Part shown: piece by piece, positions 1 to 63,438 of the stretch
How positions within the stretch are numbered: the stretch's first letter is position 1
Layout: every line of letters starts with the position of its first letter
Source of the DNA: Escherichia coli
Lineage (GTDB): Bacteria; Pseudomonadota; Gammaproteobacteria; Enterobacterales; Enterobacteriaceae
NCBI RefSeq assembly: GCF_044324785.1
Contig: NZ_CP172127.1
DNA length: 64,000 bases
Reading direction: 5' to 3' (one strand)
The notes under the pieces: generated by a model
Seen by the model: only the letters and a program-made list of their open reading frames with translations
The model's database searches: none
What the model was told of the DNA's origin: nothing
Position numbers and translations under genes: made by a program

Positions 1-240
1 CAAAATATCTCGATGGATCTCCCGGAAACCCTGCAAAGCCAGGCGATGCTGGAAAAACTGATGCAGACTCGCGTGCGTAACCTGCTGGCACAACCGGCAG
101 CGGGGACAACGGAAGCTAAACCTGCACCTGCACCTGCACCTGCACCTGCACCTGCACCTGCACCTGCACCTGCACCTGCACCTGCACCTGCACCTGCACC
201 GCAAGCTGATACTCCGGCAGCCGCGCCGCAAGGAGAATAA
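1..240 (+). CDS. hemX: HemX C-terminal part (5' end lies upstream of the window), ends in a Pro-Ala repeat
   Basis: Open frame from position 1 to TAA at 238-240; sits immediately upstream of hemY as in the hemCDXY operon. Identity rests on synteny and the recalled operon, not on a search. Confidence 0.8.
121..198. repeat. Perfect hexanucleotide tandem repeat (CCTGCA) x13 encoding (Pro-Ala)13 inside hemX
   Basis: Counted directly: 13 uninterrupted CCTGCA units in frame, flanked by GAAGCTAAA and CCGCAAGCT. Confidence 0.97.
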
Positions 241-242
241 CC

Positions 243-1439
243 ATGCTAAAAGTGTTATTGCTCTTTGTTTTGCTGATTGCGGGGATAGTGGTTGGCCCGA
301 TGATTGCCGGTCATCAGGGTTACGTGCTGATCCAGACCGACAACTACAATATTGAAACCAGCGTCACTGGCCTGGCGATTATTTTGATTCTGGCGATGGT
401 AGTGCTGTTTGCCATTGAGTGGCTACTGCGGCGGATCTTCCGCACTGGCGCGCACACCCGTGGGTGGTTTGTCGGACGTAAGCGTCGCCGTGCCCGTAAG
501 CAGACCGAACAGGCGCTGCTGAAACTGGCGGAAGGCGATTATCAGCAAGTTGAAAAGCTGATGGCGAAAAATGCCGATCACGCTGAACAACCGGTGGTGA
601 ACTATCTACTGGCTGCCGAAGCCGCGCAACAACGTGGTGATGAAGCACGCGCCAACCAACATCTGGAACGCGCAGCGGAGCTGGCCGGCAACGACACAAT
701 TCCGGTAGAAATCACCCGTGTACGTCTGCAACTGGCCCGTAATGAAAACCATGCAGCACGTCACGGCGTTGATAAGCTGCTGGAAGTTACGCCACGCCAT
801 CCGGAAGTATTACGTCTGGCGGAACAGGCGTATATCCGCACAGGTGCATGGAGTTCGCTGCTGGATATCATCCCATCAATGGCGAAAGCCCACGTTGGCG
901 ATGAAGAACATCGTGCAATGCTGGAACAACAGGCATGGATTGGCCTGATGGATCAGGCGCGCGCCGATGACGGTAGCGAAGGTTTGCGAAACTGGTGGAA
1001 AAACCAAAGCCGGAAAACGCGTCATCAGGTGGCGTTACAGGTGGCAATGGCGGAACATCTTATTGAATGTGACGATCATGATACTGCTCAGCAAATTATC
1101 ATCGACGGCCTGAAACGCCAGTATGATGATCGTCTGCTGCTGCCGATCCCGCGTCTGAAAACCAATAACCCGGAACAGCTTGAAAAAGTGCTGCGCCAGC
1201 AAATCAAAAACGTCGGCGATCGCCCGCTGTTGTGGAGCACACTGGGTCAGTCGCTGATGAAGCACGGAGAATGGCAGGAAGCATCGCTCGCCTTCCGCGC
1301 AGCGCTGAAACAACGTCCGGACGCCTACGATTACGCATGGCTTGCCGACGCGCTGGACAGACTGCACAAGCCGGAAGAAGCCGCAGCGATGCGTCGCGAT
1401 GGCTTGATGTTAACGTTGCAGAACAACCCGCCACAGTAG
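243..1439 (+). CDS. hemY: HemY, 398 aa inner-membrane TPR-like protein
   Basis: 398 aa ORF with N-terminal hydrophobic segments; length and position after hemX match E. coli HemY. Confidence 0.93.
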   Translation: MLKVLLLFVLLIAGIVVGPMIAGHQGYVLIQTDNYNIETSVTGLAIILILAMVVLFAIEWLLRRIFRTGAHTRGWFVGRKRRRARKQTEQALLKLAEGDYQQVEKLMAKNADHAEQPVVNYLLAAEAAQQRGDEARANQHLERAAELAGNDTIPVEITRVRLQLARNENHAARHGVDKLLEVTPRHPEVLRLAEQAYIRTGAWSSLLDIIPSMAKAHVGDEEHRAMLEQQAWIGLMDQARADDGSEGLRNWWKNQSRKTRHQVALQVAMAEHLIECDDHDTAQQIIIDGLKRQYDDRLLLPIPRLKTNNPEQLEKVLRQQIKNVGDRPLLWSTLGQSLMKHGEWQEASLAFRAALKQRPDAYDYAWLADALDRLHKPEEAAAMRRDGLMLTLQNNPPQ

Positions 1440-1449
1440 TTCTTTCTCA

Positions 1450-1471
1450 CCCGGAGGCAAGCACCTCCGGG
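1450..1471 (+). terminator. GC-rich hairpin just after hemY stop, candidate hemY terminator
   Basis: CCCGGAGG / CCTCCGGG stem with 6-nt loop 11 nt after the stop; T-tract is weak. Confidence 0.4.
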
Positions 1472-1486
1472 ACCTTTCTGATACAT

Positions 1487-1693
1487 AAAAAAACGCCTGC
1501 TCTTATTACGGAGCAGGCGTTAAAACAGGTCTGTATGACAACAAGTGGGTGCTTCACTCAACGTTGTGTCCATGGTGTCTGATGAGGCATAAGCGACATC
1601 TGTCAGTGGACGATAAGCACCGTAAACGGCTCTGCGTCATTCCGGAGTTTATGAGGCACTAAGGCGAACATAAGAGATGGAATGAGCATCTAC
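1487..1693 (-). ncRNA. glmZ: GlmZ small RNA (about 207 nt) with intrinsic terminator at its 3' end
   Basis: Minus-strand sequence begins GUAGAUGCUCAUUCC and ends in a hairpin (stem 1493-1502 / 1511-1520) plus U7, matching the recalled GlmZ sequence; location between hemY and aslA matches the known locus. Confidence 0.8.
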
Positions 1694-2117
1694 TCGTTTA
1701 TTATGCCACAGAGAACCGGGAAATAACATCCCTTAACACTTGTTATGAGATAATTCTGTAATCCTCTTTGCTTCCTGAGTAATAACTTCCTGAGTGAATA
1801 TTTCTCCTGCGCACGATTCTACACATATATATAATGAATAATAAAAGTCATTCAATTAATAACATATATATTAATTGCCGTTAAAACTAAAAACAGCATC
1901 AATAATCAACGCGATATAACATCACCGCCTTACATATCACCTGCGCCAGAGGTAGGATTGAAAACGCTCTCCTGATTTTCCAATTCATTTTCTGGATAAA
2001 TAAATAATTTATTTTTATCACTATTATTTATGCAATCATCCTGTCAGGGAGAGGGATCTCAATTATCAATGCTTAATTACGTCAACATTTTGACGACATG
2101 AAACCGGAGCATTTTGC

Positions 2118-3773
2118 ATGGAATTTTCGTTTTCACCCAAACTTCTTGTTGTGGCTGTCGCCGCCGCTCTTCCACTCATGGCCAACGCAGCAGATACCCC
2201 GTCAACCGCCACCGCACGCAAAGGCTTTGCCGGATACGATCACCCAAACCAGTATCTGGTTAAACCGGCGACCACTATTGCCGACAACATGATGCCGGTG
2301 ATGCAGCATCCTGCACAAGACAAAGAAACCCAGCAGAAGCTGGCAGAACTTGAGAAAAAAACCGGTAAGAAACCGAACGTGGTTGTTTTCTTGCTGGATG
2401 ATGTGGGCTGGATGGATGTTGGCTTTAACGGCGGCGGCGTGGCGGTGGGTAACCCTACACCAGATATCGACGCCGTTGCCAGCCAGGGGCTGATTTTAAC
2501 TTCGGCGTATTCTCAACCGAGTTCTTCCCCAACCCGCGCCACGATTCTTACCGGACAATACTCCATCCACCACGGCATTCTGATGCCGCCAATGTACGGG
2601 CAACCGGGCGGTCTGCAAGGGTTAACCACTCTGCCGCAGTTGCTGCACGATCAGGGCTACGTCACTCAGGCCATCGGGAAATGGCATATGGGGGAAAACA
2701 AAGAGTCGCAGCCGCAGAACGTTGGCTTTGATGATTTCCGCGGCTTTAACTCGGTATCCGATATGTATACCGAATGGCGTGATGTTCACGTCAACCCGGA
2801 AGTCGCCCTGAGCCCGGATCGTTCTGAATACATCCAAAAACTGCCGTTCAGCAAAGATGACGTTCATGCCGTGCGCGGCGGTGAACAGGAAGCCATTGCC
2901 GACATTACGCCGAAATATATGGAAGACCTGGATCAACGCTGGATGGAATATGGCGTTAAGTTCCTCGACAAGATGGCGAAGAGCGATAAGCCTTTCTTCC
3001 TCTACTACGGCACTCGCGGCTGTCACTTCGATAACTACCCAAATGCGAAATATGCGGGTAGCTCTCCGGCGCGCACCTCTTACGGCGACTGCATGGTGGA
3101 GATGAACGATATCTTCGCCAATCTGTATAAAGCACTGGAGAAAAACTGTCAGCTTGATAACACGCTGATTGTGTTCACCTCTGATAACGGTCCGGAAGCC
3201 GAAGTTCCGCCGCACGGTCGCACACCGTTCCGCGGTGCGAAAGGTTCTACATGGGAAGGCGGCGTTCGTGTGCCAACCTTCGTTTACTGGAAAGGCATGA
3301 TCCAACCGCGTAAATCTGACGGCATTGTCGATCTGGCGGATCTCTTCCCTACGGCGCTGGATCTGGCGGGGCATCCTGGGGCGAAAGTAGCGAATTTAGT
3401 ACCGAAAACCACCTTTATCGATGGTGTGGACCAGACATCTTTCTTCCTGGGAACAAATGGTCAGTCTAACCGTAAGGCCGAGCACTACTTCCTCAACGGT
3501 AAACTTTCTGCTGTGCGTATGGATGAGTTCAAGTATCACGTCCTGATCCAGCAACCGTACGCGTATACCCAGAGCGGGTATCAGGGTGGATTCACCGGCA
3601 CAGTAATGCAAACGGCGGGATCGTCGGTGTTTAACCTGTACACCGATCCGCAGGAAAGCGACTCCATCGGCGTGCGCCATATCCCAATGGGTGTACCGCT
3701 ACAGACCGAAATGCACGCGTATATGGAGATCCTGAAAAAATATCCACCACGCGCGCAGATTAAATCTGATTAA
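2118..3773 (+). CDS. aslA: Arylsulfatase-family protein AslA, 551 aa with signal peptide
   Basis: 551 aa ORF; N-terminal signal-like segment and sulfatase-type motifs (LLDDVGW, sulfatase fold); length matches E. coli AslA. Confidence 0.92.
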
Positions 3774-3809
3774 GCCGGCGCTATCGCTACATCGGGCCAC
3801 ACTGACCTT

Positions 3810-27378: not shown

Positions 27379-27416
27379 AGGAAAATCGCTCAATGAAAGT
27401 CGGGAGGGGAAAATAA

Positions 27417-27746
<330 letters not shown>

Positions 27747-27775: not shown

Positions 27776-27791
27776 GAACTCTGAATCGCAC

Positions 27792-29267
27792 TTAACCTGC
27801 AACAGCAATACGTTTCATATCCGTCATATAGCCGCGCAGTTTCTTACCTACCTGCTCAATCGCATGGCTGCGAATCGCTTCGTTCACATCACGCAACTGC
27901 GCGTTATCTACCGCACCTTCCGGAATAGCTTTACCCAGGTCGCCCGGTTGCAGCTCTGCCATAAACGGTTTCAGCAGCGGCACACAAGCGTAAGAGAACA
28001 GATAGTTACCGTATTCAGCGGTATCAGAAATAACCACGTTCATTTCATACAGACGCTTACGGGCGATGGTGTTGGCAATCAGCGGCAGTTCGTGCAGTGA
28101 TTCATAGTAAGCAGACTCTTCGATGATGCCGGAATCAACCATGGTTTCAAACGCCAGCTCAACGCCCGCTTTTACCATCGCGATCATCAGTACGCCTTTA
28201 TCGAAGTACTCCTGCTCGCCGATTTTGCCTTCATACTGCGGCGCGGTTTCGAACGCGGTTTTGCCGGTCTCTTCACGCCAGGTCAGCAGTTTCTTATCGT
28301 CGTTGGCCCAGTCAGCCATCATACCGGAGGAGAATTCGCCGGAGATGATATCGTCCATATGTTTCTGGAACAGCGGTGCCATGATCTCTTTCAATTGCTC
28401 AGAGAGCGCGTAAGCGCGCAGTTTCGCCGGGTTAGAGAGACGGTCCATCATCAGCGTGATGCCGCCCTGTTTCAGTGCTTCGGTGATGGTTTCCCAACCG
28501 AACTGAATTAGTTTTTCTGCGTATGCCGGATCGGTGCCTTCTTCCACCAGCTTGTCGAAGCACAGCAAAGAGCCAGCCTGCAACATGCCGCACAGGATGG
28601 TTTGCTCGCCCATCAGGTCAGATTTCACTTCCGCAACGAAGGACGATTCCAGCACGCCCGCACGGTGACCACCGGTTGCTGCCGCCCATGCTTTAGCGAT
28701 CGCCATGCCTTCGCCTTTCGGATCGTTTTCCGGGTGAACGGCAATCAGCGTCGGTACGCCGAATCCACGTTTGTACTCTTCACGCACTTCGGTGCCCGGG
28801 CATTTCGGCGCAACCATTACTACGGTGATGTCTTTACGGATCTGCTCTCCTACTTCCACGATGTTGAAACCGTGCGAGTAACCCAGCGCCGCGCCATCTT
28901 TCATCAACGGCTGTACGGAACGCACAACGTCGGAATGCTGCTTATCCGGCGTCAGGTTAACCACCAGATCCGCCTGCGGGATCAGTTCTTCGTAAGTACC
29001 AACTTTAAAGCCGTTTTCGGTCGCTTTACGCCAGGACGCGCGCTTCTCGGCAATCGCTTCCTTACGCAGAGCGTAGGAGATATCGAGACCAGAATCACGC
29101 ATGTTCAGGCCCTGGTTCAGACCCTGTGCGCCACAGCCGACGATGACCACTTTTTTACCCTGAAGGTAGCTCGCGCCATCGGCGAATTCATCGCGCCCCA
29201 TAAAGCGACATTTGCCCAGCTGTGCCAGCTGCTGGCGCAGATTCAGTGTATTGAAGTAGTTAGCCAT
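27792..29267 (-). CDS. ilvC: Ketol-acid reductoisomerase, 491 aa
   Basis: Start at [17 protein letters not shown]...; the ORF track adds 74 upstream codons that run into the ilvY promoter region. Confidence 0.95.
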
Positions 29268-29416
29268 GGTGATTCCTCGTGATGTTGTGCTTCTTATTGT
29301 TCGGTTCGCGTTTGCGAGATTGAATTCACTATATGACAGGAAATTTATTGCGGAAATTGATATATTCACAACGTCACATTGCAATTTCTGCAACGTCAAC
29401 ATCGAGGGCTGCGCCT
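29268..29416. promoter_or_regulatory. Divergent ilvY / ilvC promoter-operator region
   Basis: 149-bp spacer between divergent starts; location of the IlvY operators is established knowledge, individual sites not mapped here. Confidence 0.55.
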
Positions 29417-30307
29417 GTGGATTTACGCGATCTGAAAACCTTCCTGCATCTGGCGGAAAGCCGCCATTTTGGCCGTAGCGCGCGGGCAATGCACGTTAGC
29501 CCGTCTACGCTTTCGCGACAAATACAGCGCCTGGAAGAAGATCTCGGTCAGCCGCTGTTTGTGCGTGATAACCGCACGGTAACGCTGACGGAAGCGGGCG
29601 AAGAACTGCGCGTTTTCGCCCAGCAAACACTGTTGCAATATCAGCAATTGCGCCACACCATCGACCAGCAAGGGCCGTCGCTCTCTGGTGAATTACATAT
29701 CTTCTGCTCGGTGACCGCTGCCTACAGCCATCTTCCACCGATTCTCGACCGCTTCCGCGCGGAACATCCGTCAGTGGAGATCAAACTCACTACCGGTGAT
29801 GCGGCCGATGCGATGGAAAAGGTGGTCACTGGCGAAGCGGATCTGGCGATTGCGGGTAAACCGGAAACCTTGCCGGGCGCAGTGGCGTTTTCGATGCTGG
29901 AGAATCTGGCGGTGGTGCTGATTGCTCCCGCGCTGCCCTGCCCGGTGCGTAATCAGGTATCTGTCGAAAAGCCCGACTGGTCTACAGTGCCGTTTATCAT
30001 GGCCGATCAGGGACCGGTACGCCGCCGCATTGAACTGTGGTTTCGGCGTAACAAAATCAGCAACCCAATGATTTACGCCACGGTTGGCGGGCATGAAGCG
30101 ATGGTATCGATGGTGGCGCTCGGCTGTGGCGTGGCGCTGTTGCCGGAAGTGGTGCTGGATAACAGCCCGGAACCGGTGCGTAACCGCGTGATGATTTTAG
30201 AGCGCAGTGATGAAAAAACGCCGTTTGAGCTGGGCGTGTGCGTACAAAAAAAGCGGCTTCATGAGCCGCTGATTGAGGCGTTCTGGAAGATTTTGCCGAA
30301 CCACTAA
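29417..30307 (+). CDS. ilvY: LysR-type regulator IlvY, GTG start
   Basis: Start at GTG ([23 protein letters not shown]...), helix-turn-helix at the N-terminus; the ORF track begins 28 codons upstream. Confidence 0.88.
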
Positions 30308-31850: not shown

Positions 31851-33701
31851 TTAACTCCCCAGTTTCGATTTATCGCGCACCGCACCTTTGTCGGCGCTGG
31901 TTGCCAGGCTGGCGTAGGCGCGCAACGCAAAGGAGACCTGACGTTCGCGATTTTTCGGCGTCCAGGCTTTGTCGCCACGAGCTTCCTGCGCTTCACGACG
32001 CGCCGCCAGTTCGGCATCGCTTACCTGTAACTGAATGCCACGGTTGGGAATGTCGATAGCGATAAGATCGCCGTCTTCAATCAGACCAATGCTGCCGCCG
32101 CTTGCCGCTTCCGGCGAGACGTGGCCGATGGAAAGACCAGAGGTGCCGCCGGAGAAGCGTCCGTCGGTGATCAGCGCGCAGGCTTTACCGAGACCCATTG
32201 ATTTCAGGAAGCTGGTTGGGTAGAGCATTTCCTGCATCCCCGGACCGCCTTTCGGGCCTTCGTACCGGATCACCACTACATCGCCAGCGACAACTTTGCC
32301 GCCGAGAATCGCTTCTACCGCGTCATCCTGGCTTTCGTACACTTTCGCCGGGCCGGTGAATTTGAGGATGCTGTCATCGACGCCCGCGGTTTTAACAATG
32401 CAGCCGTTTTCTGCGAAATTACCGTAGAGCACCGCCAAGCCGCCGTCTTTGCTGTAGGCGTATTCCAGCGAGCGGATACAGCCGTTTGCGCGATCGTCAT
32501 CGAGAGAATCCCAACGGCAATCCTGCGAGAATGCCTGTGTAGTACGAATGCCAGCAGGGCCTGCGCGGAACATATTTTTAACCGCGTCATCCTGGGTCAG
32601 CATAACGTCGTATTGTTCCAGCGTTTGCGGCAACGTCAGGCCAAGCACGTTTTTCACATCACGGTTCAGTAACCCCGCGCGATCCAGTTCGCCAAGAATA
32701 CCGATAACACCACCAGCACGATGAACATCTTCCATATGGTATTTCTGGGTGCTCGGCGCAACTTTACACAGCTGTGGAACCTTGCGGGAGAGCTTATCAA
32801 TATCACTCATGGTGAAGTCGATTTCCGCTTCCTGCGCCGCCGCCAGCAGGTGAAGTACCGTGTTGGTAGAGCCGCCCATCGCGATATCCAGCGTCATGGC
32901 ATTTTCAAACGCCGCTTTGCTAGCAATATTGCGCGGCAGTGCACTTTCGTCGTTTTGCTCGTAGTAACGTTTGGTCAATTCAACAATGCGTTTACCGGCA
33001 TTGAGGAACAGCTGCTTGCGATCGGCGTGGGTCGCCAGCAGCGAGCCGTTGCCCGGCTGCGACAGGCCCAGTGCTTCGGTCAGGCAATTCATAGAGTTAG
33101 CGGTAAACATCCCGGAGCAAGATCCGCAGGTTGGACAGGCGGAACGTTCAACCTGATCGCTCTGGGAGTCAGAAACTTTCGGGTCTGCGCCCTGGATCAT
33201 CGCATCAACCAGATCGAGCTTAATGATCTGATCGGACAGTTTGGTTTTCCCGGCCTCCATCGGACCGCCGGAAACAAAGATCACCGGAATATTCAGGCGC
33301 AGGGAAGCCATCAGCATCCCCGGGGTGATTTTGTCGCAGTTAGAGATGCAGACCATAGCGTCGGCGCAGTGGGCGTTGACCATATATTCAACGGAATCAG
33401 CGATCAGTTCGCGAGATGGCAGTGAATAAAGCATGCCCCCGTGGCCCATAGCGATCCCATCATCCACCGCAATGGTGTTGAACTCTTTGGCAACGCCGCC
33501 AGCCGCTTCAATTTGTTCGGCGACCAGTTTACCGAGATCGCGCAGATGGACGTGACCCGGTACAAATTGGGTGAACGAGTTCACAACCGCGATAATCGGC
33601 TTACCGAAATCGGCGTCGGTCATTCCGGTGGCGCGCCACAGCGCACGAGCACCCGCCATATTACGACCATGAGTGGTGGTGGCGGAACGGTACTTAGGCA
33701 T
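31851..33701 (-). CDS. ilvD: Dihydroxy-acid dehydratase, 616 aa
   Basis: 616 aa ORF; ilvD/edd family motifs. Confidence 0.95.
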
Positions 33702-34714: not shown

Positions 34715-34978
34715 TCAGGCGCGGATTTGTTGTGATGTGGTTGTGCTCTGGCAGATGGCAACGTGTGCGACGTCCACCAGTTTATTTAACTGACTAAACA
34801 GTAAGTCGACCGACCGTGGGCTGGCAACGGTCAATTCGATATTTATATTTTGTGCATCGCTGGCGGCAGCCATATTCATTGAGCAGACGTGGAAACCACG
34901 ATGACGCACCACGCGTAAAACACGTTCTAAGGTTTCTGGATTGAAGCGAGCCGATACATTGACCTGATGTTGCATCAT
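34715..34978 (-). CDS. ilvM: Acetolactate synthase II small subunit, 87 aa
   Basis: 87 aa ORF whose start overlaps the ilvG stop (ATGA). Confidence 0.92.
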
Positions 34979-36621
34979 GATAATTTCTCCAACATTTCTG
35001 AATTACTGGCACCAGGCGGCACCAGCGGCCAGACATTCTCAAGTTCGTCGATTGAGACATGAAGCAGGTATGGCCCATCACTGTTCAGCATGGTGTCGAG
35101 TGCCGCTTCAACCTGGTCTTTACGGGTGATGTGTTGGCCAGGGATGCCGAAGGCGCTGGCTAACATGAGGAAATCGGGGTTATCAGTAAGGGTGGTTTCG
35201 CTGTATCGTTCCTGAAAAAACAGTTGCTGCCATTGTCGAACCATCCCTAACCGTTGGTTATCGAGTAAGACGATTTTCAACGGTAACTGCTTGCGTTTTA
35301 CGGTGCCCAGCTCTTGCACATTCATCATGAAAGAGCCGTCACCGGAGATACAGACGACGGTATCGTTCGGTCGCGCGACTTGTGCGCCAACCGCCGCTGG
35401 TAAACCAAAACCCATGGTGCCTAAGCCGCTAGAGGTGATGAAATTTTCCGGGCGAGTGTGGGCGATGTGCTGCGCAGCCCACATCTGGTGCTGCCCCACA
35501 TCTGTGGTCACGACGCAATCCGCAGGTTTACGATCCGACAGTTGTTTTAACAACAACGGCGCGTAGATAGCGTCACCGGGATGGTCGTAACGCCAGGAAT
35601 GTTCATCACGCAGCTGCGCGCAGTGTTGCTGCCAGTCATTGATATTTAACGGCTGCTGTAATGCTGGTAACAGAGCATTTAAATCGCCTTGTAATGCCAC
35701 ATGTGCCTGACGCAGCTTGTTCATTTCTGCCGGGTCGATATCCATATGGATAACACTGGCGTGTGGTGCGAAGGTGTTCAGTTTGCCGGTCACCCGGTCA
35801 TCAAAACGTGCACCCACGGCGATCAGCAAGTCGCACTCCTGCACCGCGAAGTTCGCCGCTTTGGTGCCATGCATTCCCAGCATGCCCAGATAGTACGGAT
35901 AATCTGCTTCAACTGCGCCCAGCCCTTTCAGCGTGCAGGTGGCAGGCATTTTTGTGGTAGCGAGAAATTCTCGTAAAGCAGGAACTGCCTGCGCCATACC
36001 TACGCCCCCGCCAACGTACAGCATCGGTTTTTGCGCTTTTGCCAGCATCTGGCGCGCTTGCTCAACTTCGGCATGTGGGAAAGTCACTTCGTTTTCAACG
36101 GTGGTGAACCACGGTTCCAGGTCACCGCTGGCTAGCTGGATATCTTTTGGGATATCGACCAGAACCGGACCAGGACGACCTGAGCTGGCAACGTCGAATG
36201 CTTCAGCCATAATGCGCGGCAACTCTTCAAGCGACTGCACCAGAAAGCTGTGCTTGGTACAGGCTAACGACAATCCCAGGACATCCACTTCCTGAAATGC
36301 GTCAGTGCCGATAAACGGTGCGGACACTTGACCGGTGATGGCAACAACAGGGATGGAATCTAACAGTGCGTCCGCAAGCCCGGTTATCAGGTTGGTTGCG
36401 CCCGGACCAGACGTGGCGATACATACGCCAGTTTTGCCGGTAGCACGGGCATAACCGATAACCGCCATTGCCGCACCCTGCTCATGTCGGCACAGCAAGT
36501 GCTCCACGCCGCCGTCATACAATGCATCGTAAACCGGCATAATTGCGCCACCCGGATAACCGAAAACGGTATTCACACCCTGTGCCCGCAACGCATGTAC
36601 CACCCACTGTGCGCCATTCAT
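34975..36621 (-). CDS. ilvG: Acetolactate synthase II large subunit, intact 548 aa reading frame
   Basis: Single uninterrupted 548 aa ORF with ThDP-binding motifs; no internal frameshift or stop. Confidence 0.93.
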
Positions 36622-40573: not shown

Positions 40574-43478
<2,905 letters not shown>

Positions 43479-43832: not shown

Positions 43833-45374
<1,542 letters not shown>

Positions 45375-60658: not shown

Positions 60659-60667
60659 TTTTCCACA
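60659..60667. promoter_or_regulatory. DnaA-box-like 9-mer in the mioC promoter region
   Basis: TTTTCCACA matches TTWTNCACA; a TACAAT -10 candidate lies at 60703-60708. Confidence 0.5.
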
Positions 60668-60726: not shown

Positions 60727-61170
60727 ATGGCAGATATCACTCTTATCAGCGGCAGCACCCTCGGCGGTGCCGAATATGTGGCAGAACACCTGGCTGAAAA
60801 GCTGGAAGAGGCGGGTTTTACCACCGAAACGCTGCACGGTCCGCTGTTGGAAGATTTATCTGCCTCGGGGATCTGGCTGGTTATCAGCTCAACCCACGGT
60901 GCCGGAGATATTCCGGATAACCTTTCTCCTTTCTATGAAGCATTGCAGGAACAGAAGCCCGATCTTTCTGCGGTCCGCTTTGGCGCTATCGGTATTGGCA
61001 GTCGTGAATATGACACCTTTTGTGGGGCTATCGATAAACTCGAGGCTGAACTCAAAAATTCCGGTGCAAAACAGACAGGCGAAACACTGAAGATCAACAT
61101 TCTTGATCACGACATTCCGGAAGATCCGGCAGAAGAATGGCTGGGATCGTGGATTAATTTACTCAAATAA
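60727..61170 (+). CDS. mioC: Flavodoxin-like FMN protein MioC, 147 aa
   Basis: 147 aa ORF immediately adjacent to oriC. Confidence 0.93.
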   Translation: MADITLISGSTLGGAEYVAEHLAEKLEEAGFTTETLHGPLLEDLSASGIWLVISSTHGAGDIPDNLSPFYEALQEQKPDLSAVRFGAIGIGSREYDTFCGAIDKLEAELKNSGAKQTGETLKINILDHDIPEDPAEEWLGSWINLLK

Positions 61171-61184
61171 GTATACAGATCGTG

Positions 61185-61462
61185 CGATCTACTGTGGATA
61201 ACTCTGTCAGGAAGCTTGGATCAACCGGTAGTTATCCAAAGAACAACCGTTGTTCAGTTTTTGAGTTGTGTATAACCCCTCATTCTGATCCCAGCTTATA
61301 CGGTCCAGGATCACCGATCATTCACAGTTAATGATCCTTTCCAGGTTGTTGATCTTAAAAGCCGGATCCTTGTTATCCACAGGGTAGTGCGATCCTAATA
61401 AGAGATCACAATAGAACAGATCTCTAAATAAATAGATCTTCTTTTTAATACCCAGGATCCCA
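61185..61462. other. oriC: Chromosomal replication origin oriC
   Basis: DnaA boxes at 61193-61201 (R4), 61232-61240 (R3-like TTATCCAAA), 61267-61275 (R2, TTATACACA) and 61373-61381 (R1); three AT-rich 13-mers at 61395-61438; about 15 GATC sites within roughly 320 bp. Confidence 0.92.
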
Positions 61463-61548
61463 GGTCTTTCTCAAGCCGACAAAGTTGAGTAGAATCCACG
61501 GCCCGGGCTTCAATCCATTTTCATACCGCGTTATGCGAGGCAATCACC

Positions 61549-63438
61549 ATGTTTTATCCGGATCCTTTTGACGTCATCATCATTGGCGGGGGTCATGCAG
61601 GCACCGAGGCCGCGATGGCCGCGGCGCGTATGGGTCAACAGACTCTGCTTTTGACACACAATATCGACACTCTGGGGCAGATGAGCTGCAACCCGGCGAT
61701 CGGCGGTATTGGGAAGGGACATCTGGTAAAAGAAGTGGATGCACTCGGCGGTCTGATGGCGAAAGCTATCGATCAGGCGGGTATCCAGTTTAGGATACTA
61801 AACGCAAGCAAGGGACCAGCGGTTCGCGCTACCCGTGCTCAGGCGGATCGTGTGCTCTACCGTCAGGCGGTACGTACGGCGCTGGAGAACCAACCGAACC
61901 TGATGATCTTCCAGCAGGCGGTTGAAGATCTTATTGTCGAAAACGATCGCGTGGTCGGTGCTGTTACCCAAATGGGACTGAAGTTCCGTGCCAAAGCCGT
62001 CGTGCTCACCGTTGGGACGTTCCTCGACGGTAAAATTCATATCGGTCTGGATAACTACAGCGGTGGCCGTGCTGGTGATCCGCCGTCCATTCCGCTTTCT
62101 CGCCGTTTGCGTGAACTGCCGCTGCGCGTTGGTCGTCTGAAAACCGGGACTCCGCCGCGTATTGATGCGCGTACTATCGACTTCAGCGTGCTGGCGCAAC
62201 AGCATGGCGATAACCCAATGCCGGTATTCTCGTTTATGGGTAATGCGTCCCAGCATCCACAGCAGGTGCCGTGTTATATCACCCATACCAACGAGAAAAC
62301 CCATGATGTGATCCGCAGTAACCTCGATCGTAGCCCAATGTATGCAGGGGTGATCGAAGGTGTCGGCCCACGCTACTGCCCGTCGATCGAAGACAAAGTC
62401 ATGCGCTTCGCCGACAGAAATCAGCATCAGATCTTCCTTGAACCGGAAGGGCTGACCTCAAACGAAATTTATCCGAACGGTATCTCCACCAGCCTGCCGT
62501 TCGATGTGCAGATGCAAATCGTCCGCTCCATGCAGGGGATGGAAAACGCGAAGATCGTGCGTCCGGGTTATGCCATTGAGTATGACTTCTTCGATCCACG
62601 CGACCTGAAACCGACGCTGGAGAGCAAGTTTATCCAGGGGCTGTTCTTTGCTGGTCAGATTAACGGCACTACCGGTTACGAAGAAGCCGCTGCGCAAGGT
62701 TTGCTGGCCGGTCTTAACGCTGCCCGTCTGTCTGCTGACAAAGAAGGTTGGGCTCCGGCGCGTTCTCAGGCCTATCTCGGCGTACTGGTTGATGACCTGT
62801 GCACTTTAGGAACCAAAGAACCGTATCGTATGTTTACCTCGCGCGCAGAATATCGTCTGATGCTGCGCGAAGATAACGCGGATCTGCGTTTGACTGAAAT
62901 CGGTCGTGAACTGGGTCTGGTAGATGACGAACGCTGGGCGCGCTTTAACGAGAAGCTTGAGAACATCGAGCGTGAGCGTCAGCGTCTGAAATCGACCTGG
63001 GTAACCCCGTCGGCGGAAGCTGTAGCCGAAGTGAATGCTCACCTGACTGCGCCGCTTTCCCGTGAAGCCAGTGGTGAAGATCTGCTGCGTCGTCCGGAAA
63101 TGACTTATGAAAAATTAACCACGCTGACGCCGTTTGCCCCTGCGTTGACAGACGAACAGGCGGCGGAACAGGTTGAGATTCAGGTTAAATACGAAGGTTA
63201 TATCGCGCGCCAGCAAGATGAGATCGAAAAGCAGCTGCGTAACGAGAACACCCTGCTACCAGCGACGCTGGATTACCGCCAGGTATCCGGTCTTTCTAAC
63301 GAAGTGATCGCCAAACTTAACGATCACAAACCGGCCTCTATCGGTCAGGCTTCGCGTATTTCTGGCGTCACGCCTGCGGCCATCTCCATTCTGCTGGTGT
63401 GGCTGAAAAAACAGGGTATGCTGCGTCGTAGCGCATAA
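61549..63438 (+). CDS. mnmG: tRNA uridine 5-carboxymethylaminomethyl modification enzyme MnmG (GidA), 629 aa
   Basis: N-terminal FAD-binding GGGHAG motif; 629 aa. Confidence 0.95.

What the first reader, a model, noticed from the sequence alone, without database searches (positions are those of the whole stretch)
61185..61462. Complete oriC with ordered DnaA boxes, three 13-mers and a dense GATC cluster
All canonical elements are in the expected order between mioC and mnmG. One position in the spacer near R1 reads GGGTAGTGCGATC where I recall GGGCAGTGCGATC in K-12; if real it is a single-base origin polymorphism, otherwise a memory error.
Basis: partly seen in the sequence, partly recalled or inferred. 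Interest (0 to 1): 0.3.

Follow-up and report, generated by a model that had tools for sequence, protein, structure and literature searches.

The report
Ordinary E. coli oriC, known variants
This is the normal chromosomal replication origin (oriC) of an E. coli strain, complete and correctly placed, and its two single-base differences from the K-12 laboratory strain are natural variants at positions where origin sequence varies freely, so it is ordinary.

Summary
Window 61171-61548 is the mioC-mnmG intergenic region and holds a complete E. coli oriC, reverse-complemented relative to MG1655. It has three exact 13-mers, boxes R1/R5M/R2/R3/R4 in K-12 order, and 13 GATC in 278 bp against 1.4 expected.

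It lies in the 13-bp spacer between the R 13-mer and R1.

Neither is novel.
- A76 occurs in at least 228 of about 5420 complete E. coli genomes, including the phylogroup D strains 042 and PCN033.
- Position 213 is tri-allelic in E. coli, and K-12's A is itself a minority allele.
- Across 56 Enterobacteriaceae origins, position 76 is the most variable spacer column (all four bases) while the spacer length never changes. G is the commonest base at 213.
- A 2015 survey of 59 E. coli origins, which included the A76 carriers 042 and ST2747, already concluded that differences sit mainly in spacers.

Most likely both are neutral lineage markers. Interest is low.

The parts
60727..61170 (+). mioC (147 aa), the gene flanking oriC on the R4 side; it is transcribed towards oriC
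   Evidence: ORF. The same coordinates are annotated as mioC in aligned E. coli records.
61193..61201 (-). DnaA box R4 (TTATCCACA), classical 260-268
   Evidence: identical to MG1655
61205..61246 (-). Right array of low-affinity DnaA sites (C1, I3, C2, C3), which includes box R3 at 61232-61240. The 9-mer registers are placed from my recollection of the published map.
   Evidence: R3 found. The whole stretch is identical to MG1655. Individual C/I registers were not verified from a text source here.
61241..61255 (.). Fis-consensus palindrome GAACAAC-N-GTTGTTC (classical 206-220). Its centre, window 61248 (classical 213), is G in the standard orientation here and A in K-12.
   Evidence: 6/6 match to GnnYAnnnnnTRnnC on both strands. 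Substitution shown. Fis sites are placed between R2 and C3 in the literature (PMC8488378; PMC10380432).
61267..61275 (-). DnaA box R2 (TTATACACA), classical 186-194
61285..61326 (+). Left array of low-affinity DnaA sites (I2, I1, tau2), ending in R5M at 61318-61326
   Evidence: R5M found. The stretch is identical to MG1655. The I/tau registers come from recollection of the published map.
61342..61354 (-). Primary IHF-binding core (classical 107-119, GATCAACAACCTG)
   Evidence: 7/9 match to WATCAAnnnnTTR; identical to MG1655
61373..61381 (+). DnaA box R1 (TTATCCACA on the window + strand), classical 80-88
61382..61394 (.). 13-bp spacer between R1 and the R 13-mer (classical 67-79). It carries the substitution at window 61385 (classical 76; A in the standard orientation, G in K-12).
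   Evidence: Length is invariant and sequence is variable in 56 species.
61395..61438 (-). DNA unwinding element: 13-mers R (61395-61407), M (61410-61422) and L (61426-61438)
   Evidence: Lowest G+C of the region, 34-37%.
61549..63438 (+). mnmG (gidA), the gene flanking oriC on the 13-mer side
   Evidence: ORF; annotated as mnmG in aligned records

Best explanation
This is the single, functional chromosomal origin of an E. coli strain. Its oriC haplotype is the one carried by phylogroup D strains such as PCN033 and ST70.

It should work exactly as the K-12 origin does. This part is established knowledge, not tested here:
- DnaA sits on the high-affinity boxes R1, R2 and R4.
- ATP-DnaA fills the two low-affinity arrays.
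- IHF bends the DNA between R1 and R5M.
- The M and R 13-mers unwind and are held as single strands by the DnaA bound at R1 and R5M.
- DnaB is then loaded.
- SeqA sequesters the hemimethylated GATC cluster after firing.
- Fis bound between R2 and C3 delays filling of the right array.

The two differences from K-12 are natural, inherited polymorphisms at positions that are not sequence-constrained:
- Classical 76 lies in the R13/R1 spacer, where only the length matters.
- Classical 213 is the unspecified central base of the Fis consensus.

Most likely neither has a measurable effect on initiation.
For: Identity of the locus (shown):
- The 378-bp intergenic region equals MG1655 at 376 of 378 positions with no indel, so every mapped protein site is unchanged.
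- All canonical elements are present in order. GATC is enriched about 9-fold.
- GC skew is negative in 14 of the 15 4-kb bins left of the origin and flattens in the bin that contains it.
- The query is single-copy and chromosomal in 5424 of 5426 genomes.

The variants are natural (shown):
- The full 378 bp is identical in 10 complete genomes, including PCN033 and ST70.
- The 61-mer carrying A76 is exact in 61 genomes. The A76+A98 61-mer is exact in 167 more.
- Strain 042 has both A76 and G213.
- A76 carriers differ from each other at up to 56 of 3923 flanking sites, so the allele is old rather than clonal.
- Changes private to the window in the flanks are 7 synonymous to 1 non-synonymous, which indicates natural variation rather than error.

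The positions are unconstrained (shown):
- In 56 Enterobacteriaceae origins the distance from GATC-67 to R1 never changes. Columns 72-79 are the least conserved; position 76 is T25/C15/G13/A3.
- Position 213 is G30/C15/A11 across those species.
- In E. coli, exact 61-mers with A, G or C at 213 occur in 1144, 1269 and 896 genomes.
- G+C of spacer columns 72-79 is 6/8 in K-12 and 5/8 here, within a species range of 2-6 out of 8. The calculated stacking energy changes by +1.7 kcal/mol and stays inside the natural range.

Literature:
- The DUE-R1 spacing, not its sequence, is the strict requirement (PMC5716108).
- A 59-genome survey found oriC differences mainly in spacers (PMC4585315).
Against: No functional assay was possible.
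- A76 is a minority allele (about 4%).
- It lies only 4 bp from R1, in a segment that becomes the boundary of the unwound region, so a small quantitative effect cannot be excluded.
- G at the centre of a Fis site should narrow the minor groove less readily than A. This is my recollection of Fis-DNA structural work, not checked here, so Fis affinity could differ slightly between alleles.
- T was never seen at position 213, either in 56 species or in any exact E. coli 61-mer. That hints at some constraint at this base.
Confidence: 0.93

Rival explanations
1. The base at 61385 is a sequencing or assembly error in the source genome, or the reader misremembered K-12.
For: It is a single base change in a short read-through region.
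Against: - MG1655 does read C at this position on the window strand.
- The same T occurs in at least 228 independently assembled complete genomes on two haplotypes.
- It also occurs in a cryptic-clade Escherichia genome that is 94% identical to the window.
Confidence: 0.01
2. The substitutions are functional tuning variants. A76 lowers duplex stability next to R1 and shifts the edge or ease of DUE opening. G213 weakens Fis binding and so advances DnaA loading on the right array. Phylogroup D-type origins would then fire with slightly different timing than K-12.
For: - A76 reduces the calculated spacer stacking energy by 1.7 kcal/mol.
- Lower G+C in the DUE speeds in-vitro origin firing (PMC12342881).
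- Position 213 is the centre of a perfect Fis-consensus palindrome.
- Fis is proposed to gate right-array filling (PMC8488378).
- T is absent at 213.
Against: - Both positions take three or four different bases among healthy species and lineages.
- K-12's spacer is at the G+C-rich extreme, and the window allele moves towards the typical value.
- Specific Fis binding at oriC is reported to have little or no effect on initiation (PMC10380432).
- The chromosomal origin tolerates loss of the whole Fis site (PMC4585315).
- Natural O26:H11 and O111 strains even lack one nucleotide in this spacer (PMC4585315).
Confidence: 0.06

Closest known systems
E. coli K-12 MG1655 oriC (NC_000913.3 3925744-3925975, between mnmG and mioC)
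   Same: Gene context, all 13-mers, all R boxes, the IHF and Fis sites, every GATC and all spacings are the same. 376 of 378 intergenic bases are identical.
   Different: Two substitutions: classical 76 G>A and classical 213 A>G.
oriC of phylogroup D E. coli (PCN033, O7:H15 ST70; strain 042)
   Same: PCN033, ST70 and eight other complete genomes are 100% identical over the 378-bp region. Strain 042 shares both A76 and G213. PCN033 is assigned to group D together with 042 and UMN026 (PMC4578781).
   Different: Strain 042 has two further changes, at classical 98 and 271. Over 24 kb the best complete genome is only 99.2% identical, so the source strain itself is not in the collection.
Enterobacteriaceae oriC family (56 species origins recovered here: Citrobacter, Klebsiella, Enterobacter, Kluyvera, Raoultella and others)
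   Same: The architecture is the same, with no indel between the R 13-mer and R4. The GATC sites and R boxes are invariant. The variable blocks fall at classical 72-79 and around 206-219.
   Different: Other species differ at many spacer positions. The window differs from K-12 only at two of those variable positions.
Natural E. coli oriC variants catalogued by Frimodt-Moller et al. 2015 (PMC4585315)
   Same: That survey of 59 genomes included ST2747 and 042, both A76 carriers. It found differences mainly in spacers between binding sites.
   Different: That paper states that the oriC Fis site is fully conserved. Here the centre of the Fis-consensus palindrome is tri-allelic. The paper presumably delimits the Fis site differently; I could not read its figure.

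Membership tests
E. coli-type (enterobacterial) oriC | Location in the mioC-mnmG (gidA) intergenic region | tested here: met
   ORFs; annotated neighbours in aligned records; the window is collinear with MG1655 3923184-3987939
E. coli-type (enterobacterial) oriC | Three tandem AT-rich 13-mers (GATCTnTTnTTTT) forming the DUE at one end | tested here: met
   Exact K-12 L, M and R 13-mers at 61395-61438; G+C minimum of 34-37%
E. coli-type (enterobacterial) oriC | DnaA boxes R1, R5M, R2, R3 and R4 in the K-12 order, orientation and spacing | tested here: met
   no indel against MG1655
E. coli-type (enterobacterial) oriC | Low-affinity DnaA arrays (tau, I and C sites) between the high-affinity boxes | tested here: met
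   Met by sequence identity with MG1655 at all positions except classical 76 and 213. The site registers themselves were recalled, not re-derived.
E. coli-type (enterobacterial) oriC | IHF site between R1 and R5M, and Fis site between R2 and R3/C3 | tested here: met
   Consensus scans. The IHF region is identical to K-12. The Fis palindrome keeps all 6 specified consensus bases.
E. coli-type (enterobacterial) oriC | Cluster of 11 GATC (Dam/SeqA) sites in the minimal origin | tested here: met
E. coli-type (enterobacterial) oriC | Fixed 13-bp distance between the R 13-mer and R1 | tested here: met
   The same length as K-12 and as all 56 species origins. The strict spacing requirement is from PMC5716108.
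E. coli-type (enterobacterial) oriC | Replication actually starts here (autonomous replication, marker-frequency peak) | not testable with these tools
   Only indirect support: the GC-skew trend ends at the origin, and only 2.5 kb lies beyond it.

The most novel reading that the evidence does not exclude
The natural allelic series at the E. coli origin includes A/G at position 76, G/A at 98, A/G/C but never T at 213, and the one-nucleotide spacer deletion of O26/O111. On this reading the series is not neutral but tunes DUE opening and Fis gating, so phylogroups would differ heritably in initiation timing or multifork capacity.
Probability: 0.05. Interest if true: 0.35.

Novelty: already known. 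Interest (0 to 1): 0.07.

Why it matters
It matters little.
- It confirms that the window contains the chromosomal origin, which is useful as an anchor for annotating the window and assigning replichores.
- It shows that K-12 is not the only common oriC haplotype. At position 213 the K-12 base is one of three alleles of similar frequency.

If the rare-variant reading were true, it would give natural alleles for studying how spacer composition next to R1, or the centre of the Fis site, affects initiation. The comparative data argue for neutrality.

Tried and rejected
- **Frequency from one 61-mer.** I first took the 61 exact matches (1.1%) as the frequency of A76. This undercounts. A second haplotype, A76 plus A98, adds 167 genomes, so the allele is in at least 4.2%.
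- **Secondary IHF site.** I checked whether position 76 lies in the proposed secondary IHF site (IBS2) that overlaps R1 (PMC8407004, PMC10380432). The best match to the published 33-mer consensus is classical 84-116, which excludes position 76. The exact IBS2 coordinates appear only in a figure I could not read.
- **Extended KAK/DnaA-trio motif.** I checked whether A76 creates or extends a KAK/DnaA-trio motif (PMC12342881). In the frame TAT-TAG-GAT-CGC-ACT-GCC, the change falls on the first base of a trio, not the central A, so it makes no new motif. This is my inference.
- **Noisy or artificially mutated window.** The best 24-kb match is only 99.2% and differences are spread evenly, rRNA genes included. 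I rejected the idea because window-private changes are 7 synonymous to 1 non-synonymous.
- **Primary Fis papers.** Hengen et al. 1997 and 2003 are not held. The supplementary alignment of PMC4585315 is not searchable as sequence.
- **Missing relatives.** The genome-collection scan pattern missed Salmonella, Shigella, E. albertii and E. fergusonii. The ancestral state at position 76 within Escherichia therefore stays unresolved: E. whittamii has G, and a cryptic-clade genome has A.

Full report
**What is there**

Window 61171-61548 is the non-coding stretch between a 147-aa ORF (60727-61170, +) and a 629-aa ORF (61549-63438, +). In E. coli records that share this sequence, these ORFs are annotated mioC and mnmG.

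The window as a whole is collinear with MG1655 3923184-3987939 in reverse orientation. MG1655 annotates oriC at the corresponding place.

I converted coordinates to the classical numbering, where the G of the BamHI site is position 1. Classical position p is window 61460-(p-1). On that numbering the elements are:

| Element | Window coordinates |
|---|---|
| 13-mer L | 61426-61438 |
| 13-mer M | 61410-61422 |
| 13-mer R | 61395-61407 |
| R1 | 61373-61381 |
| R5M | 61318-61326 |
| R2 | 61267-75 |
| R3 | 61232-61240 |
| R4 | 61193-61201 |

All of these match K-12 exactly.

No other 275-bp stretch has more than 8.
- G+C falls to 34-37% over the 13-mers.
- GC skew is negative in 14 of the 15 4-kb bins to the left and flattens in the bin that contains the origin.

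**Differences from K-12**

A gap-free alignment of the 378-bp intergenic region with MG1655 shows exactly two substitutions.

1. Window 61385 is T where K-12 has C. This is classical position 76, G>A in the standard orientation.
   - The base lies in the 13-bp segment between the R 13-mer (classical 54-66) and R1 (classical 80-88), four bases from R1.
   - It is the central base of the perfect palindrome GAACAAC-N-GTTGTTC (classical 206-220).
   - That palindrome matches the Fis consensus GnnYAnnnnnTRnnC at all six specified bases on both strands.
   - Reviews place the oriC Fis sites in this R2-to-C3 interval (PMC8488378; PMC10380432).
   - Position 213 is one of the unspecified n positions of that consensus.

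All other mapped sites are unchanged, simply because the rest of the sequence is identical. This covers the low-affinity tau, I and C boxes, the IHF site and every GATC.

**How common are the two alleles in E. coli?**

I used 61-base queries centred on each site against 5426 complete genomes and counted exact matches.

For classical 46-106:

| Haplotype | Exact matches |
|---|---|
| K-12 | 4358 |
| Window (A76) | 61 |
| A76 plus A98 | 167 |

- Strain 042 carries the A76+A98 haplotype.
- A76 is therefore in at least 228 genomes, about 4%.
- Carriers include PCN033, O7:H15 ST70, ST2747, O166:H15, O158:H23 and 042. PCN033 is assigned to phylogroup D alongside 042 (PMC4578781).
- Sampled carriers differ at up to 56 of 3923 flanking sites, so the allele is old rather than clonal. 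It occurs with both G213 and C213.
- It is also present in a cryptic-clade Escherichia genome that is only 94% identical to the window.

For classical 183-243, exact 61-mers by the base at position 213:

| Base at 213 | Exact matches |
|---|---|
| A (K-12) | 1144 |
| G (window; also O157:H7) | 1269 |
| C | 896 |
| T | 0 |

The K-12 base at 213 is thus just one of three alleles of similar frequency.

The whole 378-bp region is identical in 10 complete genomes.

**Conservation across species**

One scan of species-representative genomes returned 61 enterobacterial origins, of which 56 were usable.

- Between the R 13-mer and R4 they align without any indel.
- The GATC at position 67 and R1 are invariant and always 13 bp apart.
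- Columns 72-79 are the least conserved of the origin. Position 76 is T25/C15/G13/A3.
- Position 213 is G30/C15/A11/T0.
- G+C of columns 72-79 is 6/8 in K-12 and 5/8 in the window, against 2-6 out of 8 (mode 4) across species.
- The calculated stacking free energy changes by +1.7 kcal/mol and stays within the natural range.

This fits the experimental literature. [quoted passage not shown] No sequence requirement is stated there for that spacer.

**Prior knowledge**

Frimodt-Moller et al. 2015 compared oriC in 59 E. coli genomes, including ST2747, 042 and UMN026.

- They found differences primarily in spacer regions between binding sites.
- They noted that O26:H11 and O111:H- even lack one nucleotide in this same R13-R1 spacer.
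- They reviewed evidence that chromosomal oriC tolerates loss of the Fis site (PMC4585315).
- I saw 60-nt matches consistent with that deletion (rows H66, H181 and H248).

**Mechanism**

The origin should operate as in K-12. This is established knowledge, not tested here. DnaA occupies R1, R2 and R4, and ATP-DnaA fills the two arrays. IHF bends the DNA between R1 and R5M. The M and R 13-mers open and are bound as single strands by DnaA at R1 and R5M. DnaB is loaded, and SeqA then sequesters the hemimethylated GATCs. Fis competes with filling of the right array.

The two substitutions most likely have no measurable effect (inference from the comparative data above).

The alternative is that they tune opening or Fis gating. 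It has only weak support: the 1.7 kcal/mol change, the central position of 213 in a Fis site, and the absence of T at 213. I give it about 6%.

**Checks that led nowhere**

- Position 76 lies outside the best match (classical 84-116) to the published 33-mer IHF consensus.
- Position 76 does not create a new KAK/DnaA-trio unit (my inference).
- I suspected the window was noisy, because its best 24-kb match is only 99.2% with evenly spread differences. I rejected this because window-private changes are 7 synonymous to 1 non-synonymous.

**Verdict**

This is a textbook oriC carrying two known natural polymorphisms at unconstrained positions. It is already known and of low interest.

Noticed in passing
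window 61248 (classical oriC position 213): The centre of the Fis-consensus palindrome is tri-allelic in E. coli. Exact 61-mers with A, G and C occur in 1144, 1269 and 896 genomes. T was found in none of 5404 genomes and in none of 56 Enterobacteriaceae species. All four combinations of A/G at position 76 with G/C at 213 occur in an 18-sequence sample, which implies recombination or recurrent mutation.
   Followed up: partly
window 40000-64000: The best match among 5426 complete E. coli genomes is only 99.2% over 24 kb, with differences spread evenly at 3-18 per kb. Yet the 378-bp oriC region is identical to 10 genomes. Window-private changes near oriC are 7 synonymous to 1 non-synonymous, so this is natural divergence: the source lineage is poorly represented or is a mosaic.
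   Followed up: partly
window 34975-36621 (- strand): ilvG is an intact 548-aa ORF here. In MG1655 it is annotated as a pseudogene, a known K-12 peculiarity.
   Followed up: partly
window 27394-27449: The interval between rep and ppiC is about 55 bp here. MG1655 has about 830 bp at this place, which includes the yifN pseudogene.
   Followed up: no
window 27787-30307 and 186-3788: Two blocks are only 94.7% and 95.5% identical to MG1655, against 97.6-98.3% elsewhere in the window. They correspond to ilvC/ilvY and to the aslA/hemY end. This suggests recombination imports from a divergent lineage.
   Followed up: no
window ~33020-33295 (inside ilvD): This is the second-densest GATC cluster of the window, with 8 GATC in 275 bp against about 1.4 expected. 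It lies inside a coding region and is probably chance or codon-driven.
   Followed up: no
window 60659-60667 (+): A consensus-class DnaA box (TTTTCCACA) lies 60 bp upstream of the mioC start codon. This is consistent with the known DnaA-regulated mioC promoter.
   Followed up: no
L057 (CACSKA010000004.1) 879-913: An assembly labelled Chryseobacterium sp. 18061 carries a typical enterobacterial oriC. It is nearly the same as that of Citrobacter sp. 18056 (L047) from the same project. The contig is probably mislabelled or a contaminant.
   Followed up: no
E. coli records H66, H181 and H248: Some E. coli genomes match the 61-base R13-R1 query over only 60 nt. This is consistent with the published one-nucleotide deletion in this spacer in O26:H11 and O111 strains, despite the reported strict spacing requirement.
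   Followed up: partly
window 43833-45374 and 40574-43478: The 16S and 23S genes of this rrnC-position operon differ from MG1655 rrsC and rrlC by 6 and 23 mismatches plus a few gaps (99.5% and 99.0% identity). This is more than I expected for rRNA within one species. It may reflect gene conversion between operons.
   Followed up: no
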